A DNA stretch of 38,428 nucleotides from Ruminiclostridium sp. (lineage in GTDB: Bacteria > Bacillota > Clostridia > Oscillospirales > Oscillospiraceae): positions 1-38,428 of the forward strand of contig JAFVUT010000147.1 in NCBI GenBank assembly GCA_017502545.1, in the 5' to 3' direction. The notes beneath the pieces are model-generated. The model searched no databases and was not told where the DNA came from. It saw only the letters and a program-made list of their open reading frames with translations. Made by a program: the position numbers and the translations under genes. Positions 1 through 34,845 of this stretch are shown here, piece by piece. Every line of letters starts with the position of its first letter. Position 1 is the stretch's first letter.

Positions 1-167
1 AAAGGTGAGTCCTGAAAGATACAGATTCTTCTGAATCTTTTATATAAATGAAAAGAACTCGTCAATTCTAATGAATCTGCAGAAAGAGAGGTAACCAATG
101 ATGTTAGATAATAAGAATTCTCAGTAACCCTTGATCGTTCCGGCGATCAAGGGTTACTTTATTTTTG
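1..167 (+). ncRNA. Tandem small RNA/micro-ORF unit A (5' end truncated by the window edge)
   Basis: Shares the block AGAAAGAGAGGTAACCA(A/T)TGATGTTAGATAATAAGAA with units B and C. Contains ORF 101-127 MLDNKNSQ* and the hairpin GTAACCCTTGATCG/CGATCAAGGGTTAC plus a T-tract at 124-167. Confidence 0.55.
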
Positions 168-835: not shown

Positions 836-971
836 TTGCGGCCTGCTGCAGCCCACGCCTTGTGCCAAGGCGCACGTTTACAGGGCGAGAAGTGTTTTCT
901 GGCACGCACATGTCGCGCCAGAAAACGAATTTCAATTTATTTTGTCGCTACGGCGACAAAACTCTACGAGG
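836..971 (+). repeat. Structured intergenic repeat family 1 (multi-hairpin, MITE/REP-like)
   Basis: Core GTGTTTTC(C/T)GGCACGC.ATGTCGCGCC(G/A)GAAAAC...hairpin...AACTCT(A/G)CGAGG, also present at 1547-1638, 21231-21365 (minus strand) and 34709-34835. Confidence 0.8.
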
Positions 972-1175
972 TTCTTTTATGCGCGCCTGGGTGGCACGCT
1001 GTTTTTCTTTCCACACCCTAGAAAAATGGGGAAAGAAAAATGGCGGTCAAATGACCGCCGAACAAATACAGCATACCAGACAACCCCCTGTCTTGTCAAT
1101 CCCCTTCCCGTGAATTCCTCCAGTTTTCTCCCGGTTGCCCAAGGCCGGACAGGCTATTTTATACAATTTCCCAGC

Positions 1176-4004: not shown

Positions 4005-4112
4005 AATAGATCCCTCATTTTCATGTTGTTCATGGGTATCATAGCGGGAAAAGCCCTGTATTGCAAGGGGTTTGGGCGAAAAAACTCCCCCATTCCCTTT
4101 TGTCCTGGGACA

Positions 4113-4121
4113 TGGTATAAT
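4113..4121 (+). promoter_or_regulatory. Extended -10 promoter of the TnpB/Cas12-like gene
   Basis: TGGTATAAT lies 30 nt upstream of the ATG at 4152, with RBS GGAGG at 4144-4148. Confidence 0.6.
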
Positions 4122-4151
4122 AGCGACATCAAGCAGAAAGGAGGGAGGCAA

Positions 4152-5633
4152 ATGTCCCAGGAAACCGGACGTTGTGTCCTGACCCTGCCCCTGCTGACCG
4201 AACCCTGGCAGGAACACATTTTAGAGACCCGCTTCAACATCGTGGAGCATCTGCAGAACTCCCTCATTGCCTACGAACTCCGTCAGCTGAAGAATCTGAA
4301 GCGCACCCGGGCCTACCGGGACCTCATCAAGCAAATTGAAGAAACTCCGGCAGACAAGCGGAAGCCCCTGTACCGCCAGCGACAGAAAATGCTGCGGGAA
4401 GCCGGATTCTCCGAGTTTGCATTTAAAGATGCCATCACTCCCATGCAGAAGCATTTCTCAGAGCACATCGCCACCCATATTGCCCACAGGGCAGCCTCCA
4501 ATGTTTGGCGCTCCTTTGAGAAATACCTGTTCGGCAGCGGACAGGAGGTCCACTTCAAACGCCGCGGCACCCTGGACAGCGTTGCCAACCAGAAGGCCGG
4601 TGTCTCCATGGCCTACCAGGATGGCGTATTTACCTGGAGCGGTGGACGAAGCAAGCAAGCCATCAAACTGTCCCTCAAGGTTGCCCACCCCTCCACCGAC
4701 TATGAACGTGCCATGCTGGAAAAGGAGTGCAAATACTTCCGAGTGGTCCGCAAGTGGATGAAGACCCGGTACAAGTATTACCTCCAGTTCACCCTGGTGG
4801 GCGGTCCTGTCCAGAAAGACCGCCCCGTCTCCCCCGGCCGGGTGGGACTGGACATCGGCACCCAGTCCCTGGCCATCGCCTCGGAGCAGGAGGTCCGCCT
4901 CCTGGAACTGGCCGACCGGGTAAACGACAACCACCGGAAACTCCTGACCCTTCAGCGGAAGATGGACGCCAGCCGACGGGCCACCAACCCGGACAACTAC
5001 AACCCGGACGGCACCATTTGCCGGGGTGTCAAGCTCCGTTGGAACCGTTCCAACCACTATAACCGCCTGGCGGGCCAGGTTCGGGAACTCCAACGAAAGA
5101 ACGCCGACATCCGAAAACACCAGCACACCTGCCTGGCCAACCACATCCTCTCCTTAGGCAGCGAGATCTATGTGGAGCAGATGAACTTCAAGGGACTCCA
5201 GAAACGGGCCAAGGAGACCACGGTCAACGCCCAGGGCCGGTACAACCGGAAGAAGCGGTTCGGTAAATCTCTGGCCAATAAGGCCCCCGCCATGTTCCTG
5301 ACCATCCTGGACGGGAAACTGGATGCCCTGGGTCTGCCCCCCACCTATCGGGTGGACACCTGGTCCTTTAAGGCCAGCCAGTATGACCACCTGAGCCAGC
5401 AATACCGCAAGAAACGCCTGAGCCAGCGGAACCACACCCTGGACAACGGCGACACCCTCCAGCGGGATCTCTATTCCGCCTTCCTCCTGATGAACGCCCA
5501 CGAGAGCCTCAAGCACCCCGACCAGAGCCGCTGCGAGGCCACCTACAACACCTTCAAGACCCTTCACGACCAGGAGGTCCATCGGCTCCGAACCGATGAC
5601 CGCCCCCACCTGTCCAGCTTCGGCATTGCCTGA
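4152..5633 (+). CDS. tnpB: TnpB/Cas12f-like RNA-guided RuvC nuclease, 493 aa
   Basis: RuvC-I GRVGLDIGTQS, a basic helical region (LQRKMDASRR...RKHQH), RuvC-II IYVEQMNFKGL and RuvC-III LQRDLYSAF. The zinc-finger cysteines are absent (KASQYDHLSQ...LSQRNH). Confidence 0.85.
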   Translation: MSQETGRCVLTLPLLTEPWQEHILETRFNIVEHLQNSLIAYELRQLKNLKRTRAYRDLIKQIEETPADKRKPLYRQRQKMLREAGFSEFAFKDAITPMQKHFSEHIATHIAHRAASNVWRSFEKYLFGSGQEVHFKRRGTLDSVANQKAGVSMAYQDGVFTWSGGRSKQAIKLSLKVAHPSTDYERAMLEKECKYFRVVRKWMKTRYKYYLQFTLVGGPVQKDRPVSPGRVGLDIGTQSLAIASEQEVRLLELADRVNDNHRKLLTLQRKMDASRRATNPDNYNPDGTICRGVKLRWNRSNHYNRLAGQVRELQRKNADIRKHQHTCLANHILSLGSEIYVEQMNFKGLQKRAKETTVNAQGRYNRKKRFGKSLANKAPAMFLTILDGKLDALGLPPTYRVDTWSFKASQYDHLSQQYRKKRLSQRNHTLDNGDTLQRDLYSAFLLMNAHESLKHPDQSRCEATYNTFKTLHDQEVHRLRTDDRPHLSSFGIA

Positions 5634-5878
5634 TGCGAACCCCAAGCGGACAGAGTTTTCCCACAGGTTCGCACCTCTAACTCAAACAAAAACCACGGGA
5701 CAGGGCATGTCCCGGCTGCCAAAATGCCTGATGTTTTTCCCATTGGGCTGACAGTAAACGACGCGGGAATTGGTTCCAGTGCCCCTTTGCCAGGCCCCAA
5801 AGCCACCAAAGAGGAGAAGGACCATAGTACCAGAGTCTCCACACAACCGAACAATGCGAATGTTGCGATGCGAAGTGC
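5634..5878 (+). ncRNA. Putative tracrRNA/omegaRNA-like scaffold with a partial anti-repeat
   Basis: Hairpins TGCGAACC/GGTTCGCA and CGGGACA/TGTCCCG. TCCACAC (5838-5844), TGCGAA (5855-5860) and TTGCGA (5863-5868) are complementary, in antiparallel order, to the repeat segments GTGTGGA, TTCGC(A/G) and TCGCAA. Confidence 0.5.
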
Positions 5879-6084
5879 CCTCGCAATTCGTGCGTAAGTA
5901 TGGATCGCCAGATTTTACCAAAAATGAAGGAGGTCTGCAATAGTGGCCTCGCAATTCGCGCGTAAGTGTGGATTGCCAGTTAAACTCTCCCATCGTCATC
6001 ACTCCTTTCCGGCCTCGCAATTCGCACGCAAGTGTGGGTCGCTGGTATAGTATCAAGATAAGGGTATTACATCCATCTGTAAGT
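5879..6084 (+). CRISPR. Mini CRISPR-like array: three 33-bp repeats with spacers of 35, 33 and about 39 nt
   Basis: Repeats at 5879-5911, 5947-5979 and 6013-6045, consensus CCTCGCAATTCGCGCGTAAGTGTGGATCGCCAG (2, 1 and 5 mismatches). Spacers are mutually unrelated. Each repeat folds into a stem of about 11 bp with a GNRA loop. Confidence 0.75.
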
Positions 6085-6116
6085 ACCGTCCGCACCTCTG
6101 CGGACGGTTTCTTTTT
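6085..6116 (+). terminator. Intrinsic terminator closing the array
   Basis: ACCGTCCGCA-cctc-TGCGGACGGT followed by TTCTTTTT. Confidence 0.8.
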
Positions 6117-6166
6117 CCCCGAAACAATGCTATAATATCCTCAAAAGAACCCAAGGAGGAATCCCC

Positions 6167-8120: not shown

Positions 8121-8253
8121 CGGGCCGATGTGGGCATCGGCCCCTACAAGAGGCGGTTCCCTCTGCTGCCATATTCGTAGGGGCGATTCACGAATCGCCC
8201 GCCGCCCAAAGGGCTAGAACCACGTTTCGGGCGCATCGTGATGCGCCCCTACG
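8121..8253. repeat. GTAG-type REP/REPIN-like cluster (family 2)
   Basis: CGGGCCGATGTGGGCATCGGCCCCTAC, and GTAGGGGCGATTCACGAATCGCCCG ... CGGGCGCATCGTGATGCGCCCCTAC in inverted arrangement. Related copies at 15754-15783, 18531-18608 and 33119-33146. Confidence 0.75.
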
Positions 8254-8258
8254 ACACA

Positions 8259-13664: not shown

Positions 13665-13810
13665 GCCTCCCCTGTGAGGGGAGGTGCCCCAACGGGGCGG
13701 AGGGGTGCGGGGCCAAAGGGTATGTTGTCGTACCGGTACGACATTTCAACTTCTGAGATAGCACCCCTCAGTCAGCCTGCGGCTGCCAGCTCCCCTATCA
13801 AGGGGAGCCT
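13665..13810. repeat. Structured intergenic repeat family 3
   Basis: GCCTCCCCTGTGAGGGGAGGT...TGTCGTACCGGTACGACA...CACCCCTCAG...CAGCTCCCCT..AAGGGGAGCC; a close paralogue lies at 27231-27373. Confidence 0.8.
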
Positions 13811-18484: not shown

Positions 18485-18530
18485 GATACGCACCCCAATC
18501 ACAATAGAGTTTACAGTTTACGGTAGGTTT

Positions 18531-18608
18531 TGTAGGGGCGATTCACGAATCGCCCGCCACCCAGAGGGTTTGACACAGGTTTCGGGCGCTTCGTGAAGCG
18601 CCCCTACG
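18531..18608. repeat. GTAG-type REP inverted pair (family 2)
   Basis: GTAGGGGCGATTCACGAATCGCCCG...CGGGCGCTTCGTGAAGCGCCCCTAC. Confidence 0.75.
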
Positions 18609-18637
18609 AAGAATGGGTTCGTTGAAGATGCTTGGAT

Positions 18638-21205: not shown

Positions 21206-21230
21206 CCTTTTAGATCATAGATTTCAAAAA

Positions 21231-21365
21231 GCCTCGCAGAGTTTCGCCGCCTTGGCGGCGAAACAAAATTCAATGTGTTTTCCGGCGCGACATGCGCGTG
21301 CCGGAAAACTCTTCTCGGCCTGCAAACGTACAGGCCTTTGGCCTGTGCGCTGCAGCAGGCCGCAA
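21231..21365 (-). repeat. Structured intergenic repeat family 1 copy (inverted)
   Basis: The reverse complement matches 836-971; it sits between the response regulator and the kinase. Confidence 0.8.
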
Positions 21366-23694: not shown

Positions 23695-23781
23695 GCCGGT
23701 GTGATGAAATTGGTAGACGTAGCGGACTCAAAATCCGCCGCTGGCAACAGCGTACCGGTTCGAGTCCGGTCACCGGCACCA
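23695..23781 (+). tRNA. tRNA-Leu(CAA)
   Basis: GCCGGTG acceptor stem, anticodon arm GCGGA-CTCAAAA-TCCGC, long variable arm, TTCGAGT T-loop and encoded CCA. Upstream promoter TTGCCT-17-TATAAT. Confidence 0.96.
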
Positions 23782-23953
23782 AAAAAAGCAGGACCCCGCA
23801 TGGGGCCCTGCCTTTTTTGGTGCCGGTGGTCTGTTGCGCAGAATCGGCTTCCGGCGACGGGCTCGCTCTGCGAGCCCTAGTGCCCGAAGGGCGTCGAGTC
23901 CGGTCACCATGCAAAAGCCCGATTTGTCTTTTTGACAAATCGGGCTTTTGCAA

Positions 23954-24122
23954 TGATATCCGTTCCTGACGGAACGGGTGATATATCTTCGATATGATAT
24001 CCACCTGCGGTGGATGATATATGCCTGCGGCATATGAAGGAACGGATATCACATCATATTTGCCTTTGGCAAATATATCATGCGGCTTCGCCGCACATCA
24101 TATCCCGCAAGGGATATATCAT
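23954..24122. repeat. Array of short hairpins separated by GATAT/ATATC motifs
   Basis: Examples are ATCCACCTGCGGTGGAT, ATATGCCTGCGGCATAT, ATATTTGCCTTTGGCAAATAT and ATATCCCGCAAGGGATAT. Confidence 0.6.
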
Positions 24123-27230: not shown

Positions 27231-27373
27231 GCCTCCCCTGTGAGGGGAGGTTCCCCGAAGGGGTGGAGGGGTGCGGGGTCTAAGGATATGCTGTCGTACC
27301 GGTACGACAATTTATCTGCAAGGATAACACCCCTCAGGCTGCTTCGCATCCAGCTCCCCTCTAAAGGGGAGCC
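27231..27373. repeat. Structured intergenic repeat family 3
   Basis: Paralogue of 13665-13810, including TGTCGTACCGGTACGACA. Confidence 0.8.
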
Positions 27374-34708: not shown

Positions 34709-34835
34709 TTACGGCCTGCTGCACGCGTCCTTCGGACACACTGGCAGGCCGAGCAGTGTTTTCCGGCACGCACATGTCGCGCCGGAAAACGAATCCAATT
34801 ATATTTCGCCGCTGCGGCGGCGAAACTCTACGAGG
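34709..34835 (+). repeat. Structured intergenic repeat family 1 copy
   Basis: CGGCCTGCTGCA...GTGTTTTCCGGCACGCACATGTCGCGCCGGAAAAC...AACTCTACGAGG. Confidence 0.8.
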
Positions 34836-34845
34836 TTTTATCGGT

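What the first reader, a model, noticed from the sequence alone, without database searches (positions are those of the whole stretch)
5879..6045. Repeat substitutions preserve an 11-bp hairpin with a GNRA tetraloop
Seen: repeat 2 folds as GCAATTCGCGC-GTAA-GTGTGGATTGC. In repeat 1 a C-G pair becomes T-A (a double compensatory change). In repeat 3 a G.U becomes A-U, a U-A becomes U.G and the loop GTAA becomes GCAA, still GNRA. Repeats 1 and 3 have one A/C mismatch near the stem base. The G.U pairs work only on the + strand, which fixes the transcription direction. The 5' boundary is uncertain by 2 nt (GG precedes repeats 2 and 3). Inference: the repeats are maintained as RNA structure rather than decaying neutrally, so the array is probably old and functional.
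Basis: partly seen in the sequence, partly recalled or inferred. Interest (0 to 1): 0.75.

Follow-up and report, generated by a model that had tools for sequence, protein, structure and literature searches.

The report
Mini-CRISPR array of a TranC nuclease
The three hairpin repeats are a small CRISPR array behind a transposon-derived nuclease gene, likely a new member of the already described TranC systems; across relatives it is the repeat's predicted pairing with an upstream guide-scaffold RNA, not the internal GNRA hairpin, that shows compensatory change.

Summary
The substitutions and the 11-bp hairpin are in the sequence as described, but they do not exceed chance. All 9 changes are transitions; a transition-only null keeps the stem this well 66% of the time and gives a double change 26%. 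Across 19 homologous repeats the palindrome persists but does not covary (228/500 shuffles), and GNRA occurs in 6 of 20.

The repeats (32 nt; spacers 36 and 34 nt) are a CRISPR array behind a 493-aa TnpB-derived RuvC nuclease. All 39 loci with at least 50% identity and at least 400 nt downstream carry such arrays. The covarying structure is intermolecular: the repeat's 3' arm pairs with an anti-repeat and pseudoknot loop in an upstream scaffold (0/500 shuffles). The clade nests within IS605 TnpBs. Three homolog spacers match phage contigs; the closest matches follow TTC/TTT. The cassette is absent at the same site in three congeners.

This is TranC-type, best fitting clade 3. This scan reported the same family on other DNA. 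The window's own array looks like it is drifting. The repeat and leader resemble type I-C, suggesting borrowed adaptation. Verdict: new member of a known kind.

The parts
4098..4122 (+). Left copy of a degenerate 25-bp direct repeat bounding the cassette; contains an extended -10-like TGnTATAAT (4113-4121), the likely promoter of the nuclease gene
   Evidence: Overlap of the two flanking blastn matches in empty-site genomes; 16 of 25 identical to the right copy and the motif, both read by eye; the promoter scan did not list it
4152..5633 (+). 493-aa TnpB-derived RuvC nuclease (TranC/Cas12-like), catalytic D234, E342, D439 intact
   Evidence: NCBIfam guided_TnpB E 2.3e-19, below cut-off; model pLDDT 87; best fold ISDra2 TnpB 8h1j, Z 17.4, rmsd 8.8, 344 aligned; D-E-D in 24 of 24 array-linked proteins
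5634..5673 (+). Hairpin directly after the stop codon, conserved in most homologous loci
5697..5845 (+). tracrRNA-like scaffold, homologous to the IS605 omegaRNA without its last strand
   Evidence: Conserved in 19 core loci; an IS605 omegaRNA model hits the same position in 9 of 22 array loci at E<0.01, but not the window itself
5704..5707 (+). Loop (GGCA) of scaffold hairpin 5697-5713, predicted pseudoknot partner of repeat positions 27-30
   Evidence: 94.7% of cells paired, one pair with a double change in 3 loci; further switches in L007 and L107/L057/L070 seen by eye
5838..5844 (+). Anti-repeat, pairs with repeat positions 19-25
   Evidence: 7 of 7 pairs have double changes, 90.7% paired; cognate duplex -12.7 against -10.9 +/- 0.5 kcal/mol, 0 of 5000 permutations as low
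5846..5879 (+). Leader; ends in TGCC, homologs mostly TTTGCN or TCCGCA, as in type I-C leaders of host genomes
5880..5911 (+). CRISPR repeat 1 (3 differences from R2; breaks 1 of 7 anti-repeat and 1 of 4 pseudoknot pairs)
5912..5947 (+). Spacer 1 (36 nt), no target found
5948..5979 (+). CRISPR repeat 2, the only copy fully complementary to both scaffold elements
5980..6013 (+). Spacer 2 (34 nt), no target found
6014..6045 (+). Terminal repeat 3 (6 differences from R2)
6085..6108 (+). Intrinsic-terminator-like hairpin (10 pairs) followed by a T tract, closing the array
6113..6137 (+). Right copy of the degenerate direct repeat; extended -10-like motif (6128-6136) before the DUF5714 gene

Best explanation
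The three repeats and two spacers are a CRISPR array at the 3' end of a 2-kb stand-alone cassette whose 493-aa TnpB-derived nuclease likely cuts phage DNA, guided by a predicted two-part RNA (a TranC-type system). Shown: the gene, scaffold, leader, array and terminator in that order; true arrays in homologs; covariation between the repeat's 3' arm and the scaffold; descent from IS605 TnpB; phage matches of three homolog spacers; empty sites in congeners. Inferred: (1) the cassette is transcribed from the host promoter it landed in. (2) The scaffold is the old omegaRNA lacking its last strand; the repeat's 3' half supplies that strand in trans (7-bp anti-repeat duplex plus 4-bp pseudoknot) and places the spacer where TnpB's guide sits. 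(3) The whole-repeat hairpin is more stable than the duplex, so the repeat must first be cut or refolded; the hairpin is probably a transient processing or adaptation feature, not part of the mature guide. (4) Targets are DNA with a 5' TTC/TTY PAM. (5) Spacers are acquired in trans by type I-C Cas1-Cas2 at the leader end. (6) In this genome, where no Cas1 was found, the array is probably frozen and drifting, with R2 plus spacer 2 the best-formed guide.
For: Arrays: 39 of 39 loci with at least 50% identity and at least 400 nt downstream carry one (32 by the strict detector, the other 7, the window's own among them, by the seeded parser), against 23 of 176 below 50%. 61 loci were parsed; 365 of 377 spacers are 33-36 nt. 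Covariation: 92.2% of cells paired against 81.2% shuffled, 8 of 11 pairs with double changes, score 0.430 against 0.221, 0/500; slid controls 23-44%. Tree: 24 array-linked proteins plus L172 and L086 form one clade (FastTree support 0.999) inside 35 Y1-TnpA-linked TnpBs (Y1_Tnp E 5e-41 for one such TnpA). The IS605 omegaRNA model hits 9 of 22 array loci between gene and array at E<0.01. Protospacers: L088 spacer 2, 34/34, TTC; L088 spacer 1, 32/35, TTC; L116 spacer 3, TTT at 34/34 and TTC at 33/34. No Cas1 or TnpA by tblastn in the 61 loci (2.5-kb flanks), the window or G000. I-C Cas1 in 9 of 18 host genomes against 28 of 151 genomes of G000's order. Repeats score mean z 3.0 against host I-C repeats. 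A related strain has a different spacer between the outer repeats (run X7, one contig). Empty site in G004, G028 and G003 and in runs X7 and X19.
Against: No transcript, processing or cleavage is shown. No target was found for the window's own spacers. The omegaRNA model misses the window's scaffold at E<=1; the link runs through alignment A4. The PAM rests on 3 spacers from 2 loci, and 21 of the 27 phage records for L116 spacer 3 have TCC (all at 32/34). Three of 5 spacer scans found nothing. The shuffle control ignores relatedness, and L007 is misaligned at the pseudoknot in A4. Half of the hosts (9 of 18) show no I-C Cas1 at the threshold, the background set is not taxon-matched, and G000 is only 76.55% complete. 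The tree used 62 of 106 non-redundant proteins and one distant root.
Confidence: 0.88

Rival explanations
1. One reading: each repeat is selected as a self-contained 11-bp GNRA hairpin (for example a Cas12a/Cas12m-like, tracrRNA-free crRNA handle), and the three copies show this selection.
For: The hairpin folds on the + strand only; 85% of cells pair across 19 homologs, far above slid registers; one double change in R1.
Against: No covariation (228/500); GNRA in 6 of 20; 6 of 19 core repeats form only 7-8 of the 11 pairs; the window's changes are within the transition null; a conserved, covarying anti-repeat and pseudoknot exist.
Confidence: 0.06
2. Same system, but this particular copy is dead: the array has decayed beyond use and the cassette is a passenger.
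For: All three repeats differ; G1>C in all; the leader end departs from TTTTGCN; R1 and R3 each lose a pseudoknot pair; no Cas1 in G000 and no I-C Cas1 in three congeners. This is compatible with the best explanation's identity call and differs only on present activity.
Against: Intact ORF with D-E-D; R2 keeps 7/7 and 4/4 pairs; scaffold and terminator are intact; near-identical copies lie in runs X5 and X6.
Confidence: 0.3
3. The repeats are stacked IS605 right ends (an omegaRNA array left by repeated transposition), not a CRISPR array.
For: Sister TnpBs are IS605 elements ending in a hairpin plus TCAG, and the repeats end in CCAG; L172's repeat closely resembles an IS605 right end (z 3.6).
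Against: No TnpA near any of 61 loci; spacers tightly 33-36 nt, up to 25 repeats parsed in one chain, leader-trailer polarity; phage protospacers with a PAM. It may describe the repeat's origin, not its present nature.
Confidence: 0.03
4. An orphan type I-C array lies next to a TnpB gene by chance.
For: Repeat and leader resemble I-C; TTC is the canonical I-C PAM (PMC8482600, passages).
Against: Fixed position 190-320 nt behind the gene in 61 loci; the 3' end lacks the I-C ending and covaries with the scaffold; gene and array are gained or lost as one unit.
Confidence: 0.03

Closest known systems
TranC systems (Jin et al., Cell 2025, 188:6283; paper not held, known here only through passages of PMC13565253, PMC13639567 and two preprints)
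   Same: [quoted passage not shown]
   Different: No activity shown here; assignment to a numbered clade could not be checked by sequence.
TranC clade 3 / OsTranC3 (bioRxiv 10.64898/2026.03.27.714800; parts 1-3 of 7 and passages read)
   Same: Median 32-bp repeats, 3-20 repeats, Oscillospiraceae host, TTC PAM by bacterial depletion, ISDra2-TnpB-like fold.
   Different: Its sequences are in closed supplements, so identity is unknown; the enlarged bridge helix was not measured here.
LaTranC (PDB 9jfo, 9jfq; bioRxiv 10.1101/2025.09.28.678669, parts 1-2 of 4 read)
   Same: TranC organisation and TTC PAM.
   Different: 574 aa (evolved TranC11a) against 493 aa; 15-16% identity in structure alignment, Z 11.5 against 17.4 for ISDra2 TnpB; not hit by sequence or profile at E<=1. 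A separate lineage.
IS605-family TnpB with omegaRNA (ISDra2; Firmicutes sister group at 36-45% identity)
   Same: Fold, catalytic triad, scaffold architecture with loop-to-3'-end pseudoknot.
   Different: No TnpA; the right-end hairpin is replaced by an anti-repeat, a leader and an array.
Putative Cas12 groups V-U6 to V-U45 (PMC10691335; passages and SI search)
   Same: TnpB branches with downstream arrays and no cas1/2/4.
   Different: The group tables are on Zenodo and were not visible, so it cannot be mapped to one group.
Type I-C CRISPR arrays
   Same: 32-33-nt repeats, similar 5' start and 3'-arm sequence, similar leader end, TTC PAM.
   Different: Different last four bases; no adjacent cas1; pairing with a tracrRNA-like scaffold.

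Membership tests
TranC | Compact (about 300-600 aa) TnpB-derived RuvC nuclease with intact catalytic residues | tested here: met
   493 aa; size range from 10.1101/2025.09.28.678669
TranC | Conserved association with a downstream CRISPR array | tested here: met
   39 of 39 loci at >=50% identity with >=400 nt downstream
TranC | omegaRNA split into a tracrRNA with anti-repeat and a crRNA | tested here: met
   Covariation 0/500; omegaRNA model hits 9 of 22 array loci, not the window itself. Sequence evidence only.
TranC | Arises from within an IS605 or IS607 TnpB lineage | tested here: met
   Clade support 0.999 inside Y1-linked TnpBs
TranC | No dedicated adaptation genes beside the locus | tested here: met
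   No Cas1 hit in 61 loci (2.5-kb flanks) or in the 38-kb window; Cas2 and Cas4 were not searched
TranC | Programmable RNA-guided DNA cleavage | not testable with these tools
   Needs a bench assay
TranC clade 3 | 32- or 36-bp repeats, 3-20 per array | tested here: met
   32 nt, 3 copies here; 2-25 parsed in homologs; criteria
TranC clade 3 | TTC PAM (OsTranC3) | tested here: inconclusive
   TTC/TTT at the best matches of 3 homolog spacers, TCC at weaker ones; none for the window's spacers
TranC clade 3 | ISDra2-like fold with enlarged bridge helix, no REC/WED expansion | tested here: inconclusive
   ISDra2 TnpB is the top fold; long helices 257-278 and 301-335 lie between RuvC-I and RuvC-II; domain sizes not compared
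TranC clade 3 | Sequence clusters with published clade-3 proteins | not testable with these tools
   Cell paper not held; bioRxiv supplements closed
LaTranC lineage | Detectable sequence similarity to LaTranC | tested here: not met
   No hit at E<=1; 15-16% identity in structure alignments
IS605 insertion sequence | Adjacent Y1 TnpA and a right end closing the omegaRNA | tested here: not met
   No TnpA in the 61 loci, window or G000; cassette ends lie in a promoter-like direct repeat
Cas12 V-U2 (C2c8) and Cas12f | Family profile score | tested here: not met
   C2c8 42.5 bits against cut-off 350; PADLOC Cas12u4 and Cas12f only 24-32 bits, no cut-off given
Type I-C CRISPR-Cas | Adjacent cas operon and I-C repeat 3' end | tested here: not met
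   No Cas1 in the window or G000; last 4 nt match host I-C repeats at 1.0 of 4; cas3/5/7/8 not searched

The most novel reading that the evidence does not exclude
This clade records how a TnpB got its array. An IS605 element joined a type I-C leader-repeat unit, giving a chimeric repeat: I-C-like at its start, length and leader so that host I-C Cas1-Cas2 can extend it, and IS605-right-end-like at its last bases so that it completes the omegaRNA pseudoknot. L172 keeps a near-ancestral right-end repeat. That would be sequence-level evidence on the open 'duplication versus capture' question and would predict adaptation in trans. Not found in six literature searches, but the Cell TranC paper and all bioRxiv supplements were unreadable and may already say it.
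Probability: 0.35. Interest if true: 0.55.

Novelty: new member of a known kind. Interest (0 to 1): 0.3.

Why it matters
As a locus it adds one more member to a class described in 2023-2026, and possibly to a clade already used for genome editing (OsTranC3), so a specialist would not be surprised. Its value is a complete, testable parts list: nuclease, scaffold boundaries, 7-bp anti-repeat, 4-bp pseudoknot, predicted TTC PAM. The family also offers a close series from IS605 TnpB (about 40% identity) through L172 to full arrays, with I-C-like leaders and repeats. That makes the origin of type V arrays and borrowed adaptation directly testable. It also shows that apparent compensatory changes in G/U-rich CRISPR repeats can arise from transition bias alone.

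Tried and rejected
Rfam: no family at gathering score over the locus. The Hrs13 match (E 0.006, 23.6 of 52 bits) is driven mainly by the terminator. Pfam: no hit for the nuclease. My first guess of IS607 ancestry (weak NCBIfam hit) was rejected: sister elements carry Y1 TnpA.

Targets of the window's spacers: none in IMG/VR (exact 25-mer of spacer 1 only), in GenBank phages (one 19-nt match at E 8) or in 401 genomes of the order (best 25/36 and 23/34, treated as chance). Homolog arrays L135, L124 and L088 gave no match in GenBank phages. The L135 array against 240 genomes matched only its own species' array region and a host gene piece beyond the array's end, and against 5 phage contigs nothing. 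Spacer scans for L090 and L015 were empty. L001 spacer 4 matches phage loci at 27/34 and is a palindrome, so it was not counted.

Plain nhmmer of the scaffold on 82 non-array loci found only L086 and L172 (both in the array clade) and L187 at E 0.19. RNAalifold on the gappy intergenic alignment gave only -2.6 kcal/mol. RNA run X19 has contigs on parts of a related nuclease gene but none on the scaffold or array; contigs show neither strand nor transcription, so this is no evidence either way. Repeat variants in further strains could not be read. The nuclease was not found in 60 relatives of G000, nor (at E<=1e-100) in 200 genomes of G070's family other than G070. The Cell TranC paper is not held; the PNAS SI text has no clade tables. 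The search listings, and passages of PMC12721324, gave nothing on I-C-derived TranC repeats.

Full report
1. Observation. The + strand folds better than the - strand. Homologs fix the repeat at 32 nt: 5880-5911, 5948-5979 and 6014-6045, with spacers of 36 and 34 nt. Position 1 is C here and G in the other 60 of 61 array loci. The pattern is not beyond chance. All 9 differences from R2 are transitions, and 14 of 22 single stem transitions keep all 11 pairs because G.U absorbs them. Simulation gives P=0.66 for two or fewer broken pairs, 0.26 for a double change, 0.21 for both and 0.54 for GNRA kept. Only with 50% transitions does 'both' fall to 0.045. Among 19 non-redundant homologous repeats the palindrome is real (85% paired against 22-57% slid) but shows no covariation (228/500). 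The loop is GNRA in 6 of 20.

2. Context. Upstream lies a 493-aa ORF (4152-5633) that scores below cut-off on guided_TnpB, C2c8 and IS607/IS200 TnpB models and has no Pfam hit. Its model (pLDDT 87) is closest to ISDra2 TnpB (Foldseek E 1.9e-13; Z 17.4, rmsd 8.8, 344 aligned), with Cas12f next and LaTranC at Z 11.5 and 16% identity. It has 3281 relatives among 7998 scored candidates. It is single-copy in G000 and was not found in 60 relatives. A terminator-like hairpin follows the array.

3. Related loci. Of 243 loci, all 39 with at least 50% identity and at least 400 nt downstream carry an array (32 by the strict detector, 7 more by the seeded parser, the window's own among them), against 23 of 176 below 50%. 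In 61 parsed loci the array starts 190-320 nt after the stop; 365 of 377 spacers are 33-36 nt. The last repeat is degenerate in 28 of 45 arrays and the first in 7 of 45, so arrays grow at the gene-proximal end. In a FastTree tree of 62 of the 106 non-redundant proteins (I left out non-array proteins without a detected Y1 ORF, except L172, L086 and the root L003), the array-linked proteins form one clade (0.999) inside TnpBs flanked by Y1 TnpA. D-E-D is intact in all 24 array-linked and all 35 Y1-linked proteins. The ancestor is therefore IS605-type; its omegaRNA ends in a hairpin plus TCAG.

4. The structure that is conserved. The region between gene and array is a conserved scaffold. A covariance model built from 27 IS605 omegaRNAs hits it in 9 of 22 array loci at E<0.01 (best 6e-13; L001's hit is its second module), though not in the window itself. 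Two scaffold elements complement the repeat: an anti-repeat (5838-5844) pairs with repeat positions 19-25, and the loop at 5704-5707 pairs with positions 27-30. On 19 loci, 92.2% of cells pair, 8 of 11 pairs have double changes (7 of 7 in the anti-repeat), and 0 of 500 shuffles reach the score; slid controls give 23-44%. An alignment-free test agrees: cognate duplexes average -12.7 kcal/mol against -10.9 +/- 0.5, with 0 of 5000 permutations as low, although 7 of 22 loci rank no better than tenth for their own repeat. These controls ignore relatedness, but the same control gave nothing for the internal hairpin. In cofolding, the whole-repeat hairpin wins over the duplex, whereas the 3' half pairs with the anti-repeat, so the repeat must be cut or refolded first (inference). 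In the window R2 keeps 7/7 and 4/4 pairs, R1 6/7 and 3/4, R3 7/7 and 3/4.

5. Targets and adaptation. Two of 5 exact spacer scans of IMG/VR hit. L088 spacer 2 matches two phage contigs at 34/34 after TTC. L116 spacer 3 matches 27 contigs: TTT at 34/34 (1), TTC at 33/34 (3) and 32/34 (2), TCC at 32/34 (21). Of 324 spacers compared with five of these contigs, L088 spacer 1 also matches (32/35, TTC). The window's spacers have no known target. TTC is the canonical I-C PAM (PMC8482600, passages). No Cas1 or TnpA lies in the 61 loci, the window or G000 (76.55% complete). Cas1 was found in 13 of 18 host genomes, I-C type in 9 of 18, against 28 of 151 in G000's order (not a matched background). The repeats resemble five host I-C repeats (mean z 3.0, window 4.4) more than 25 IS605 right ends (mean z 1.5), except for their last four bases (2.7 of 4 against 1.2 of 4) and except L172 (z 3.6 against 0.5). 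The leader ends match I-C leaders. I infer a chimeric repeat extended in trans by I-C Cas1-Cas2; plain convergence is not excluded.

6. Mobility. Runs X7 and X19 join 4101 to 6127. G004, G028 and G003 (89-94% identical flanks) have the ABC-F and DUF5714 genes adjacent; the other 8 loci examined matched only on the DUF5714 side. The cassette is bounded by a degenerate 25-bp repeat that holds an extended -10-like motif, so it probably entered by recombination at the promoter and took it over (inference). One X7 contig has a different spacer between the outer repeats, so spacer content has changed within this lineage.

7. Comparison. It works like a TranC: TnpB-derived, with the omegaRNA split into tracrRNA and crRNA (passages of PMC13565253 and PMC13639567; the Cell paper itself was not seen). 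All membership features testable by sequence are met; cleavage is untested. Clade 3 fits best (32-bp repeats, 3-20 copies, Oscillospiraceae, TTC, ISDra2-like; 10.64898/2026.03.27.714800, parts 1-3 of 7 and passages), but its closed supplements prevent a sequence check. It is not close to LaTranC (10.1101/2025.09.28.678669, parts 1-2 of 4). PMC10691335 (passages and SI search) lists 40 such V-U branches and leaves array origin open between duplication and capture. Earlier notes of this scan reached a TranC reading on other DNA; they are not independent evidence.

8. Verdict. A real feature with an over-read signal: a new member of a known kind. Identity as a TranC-type mini-CRISPR, 0.88. This copy is currently inactive, about 0.3. 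Chimeric I-C/IS605 origin with borrowed adaptation, 0.35. Interest 0.3.

Noticed in passing
L001:4334-4750: A phage contig carries a second scaffold-leader-array module behind the first, with a different repeat and a matching different anti-repeat.
   Followed up: partly
L172:4037-4800: Phage member (47% identity) with the ancestral IS605 pseudoknot loop and a 33-nt repeat close to an IS605 right end; a likely early stage.
   Followed up: partly
window 77-160, 578-680, 1383-1470: Three related copies of about 90 nt, each ending in a terminator-like hairpin with a T tract; possibly a repeated small RNA (D5). No Rfam match.
   Followed up: no
window 845-977, 1512-1654, 21216-21329, 34709-34839: Dispersed family of palindromic elements of about 125 nt on both strands, REP/MITE-like (D1, I1-I3).
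   Followed up: no
window 8174-8254 and 18529-18609; 13665-13776 and 27231-27342: Two further pairs of intergenic palindromic or repeated elements (D15, D8).
   Followed up: no
window 23695-23778 and 23951-24025: A tRNA gene and an Rfam Gut-1 RNA.
   Followed up: no
window 5855-5868: The leader holds a stretch roughly complementary to the repeat's 5' arm; similar stretches by eye in L005 and L006 but absent from short leaders such as L016.
   Followed up: no
L287-L313: 21 of 27 phage records matching L116 spacer 3 have TCC rather than TTC/TTT before the protospacer, possibly PAM escape or a separate phage lineage.
   Followed up: no
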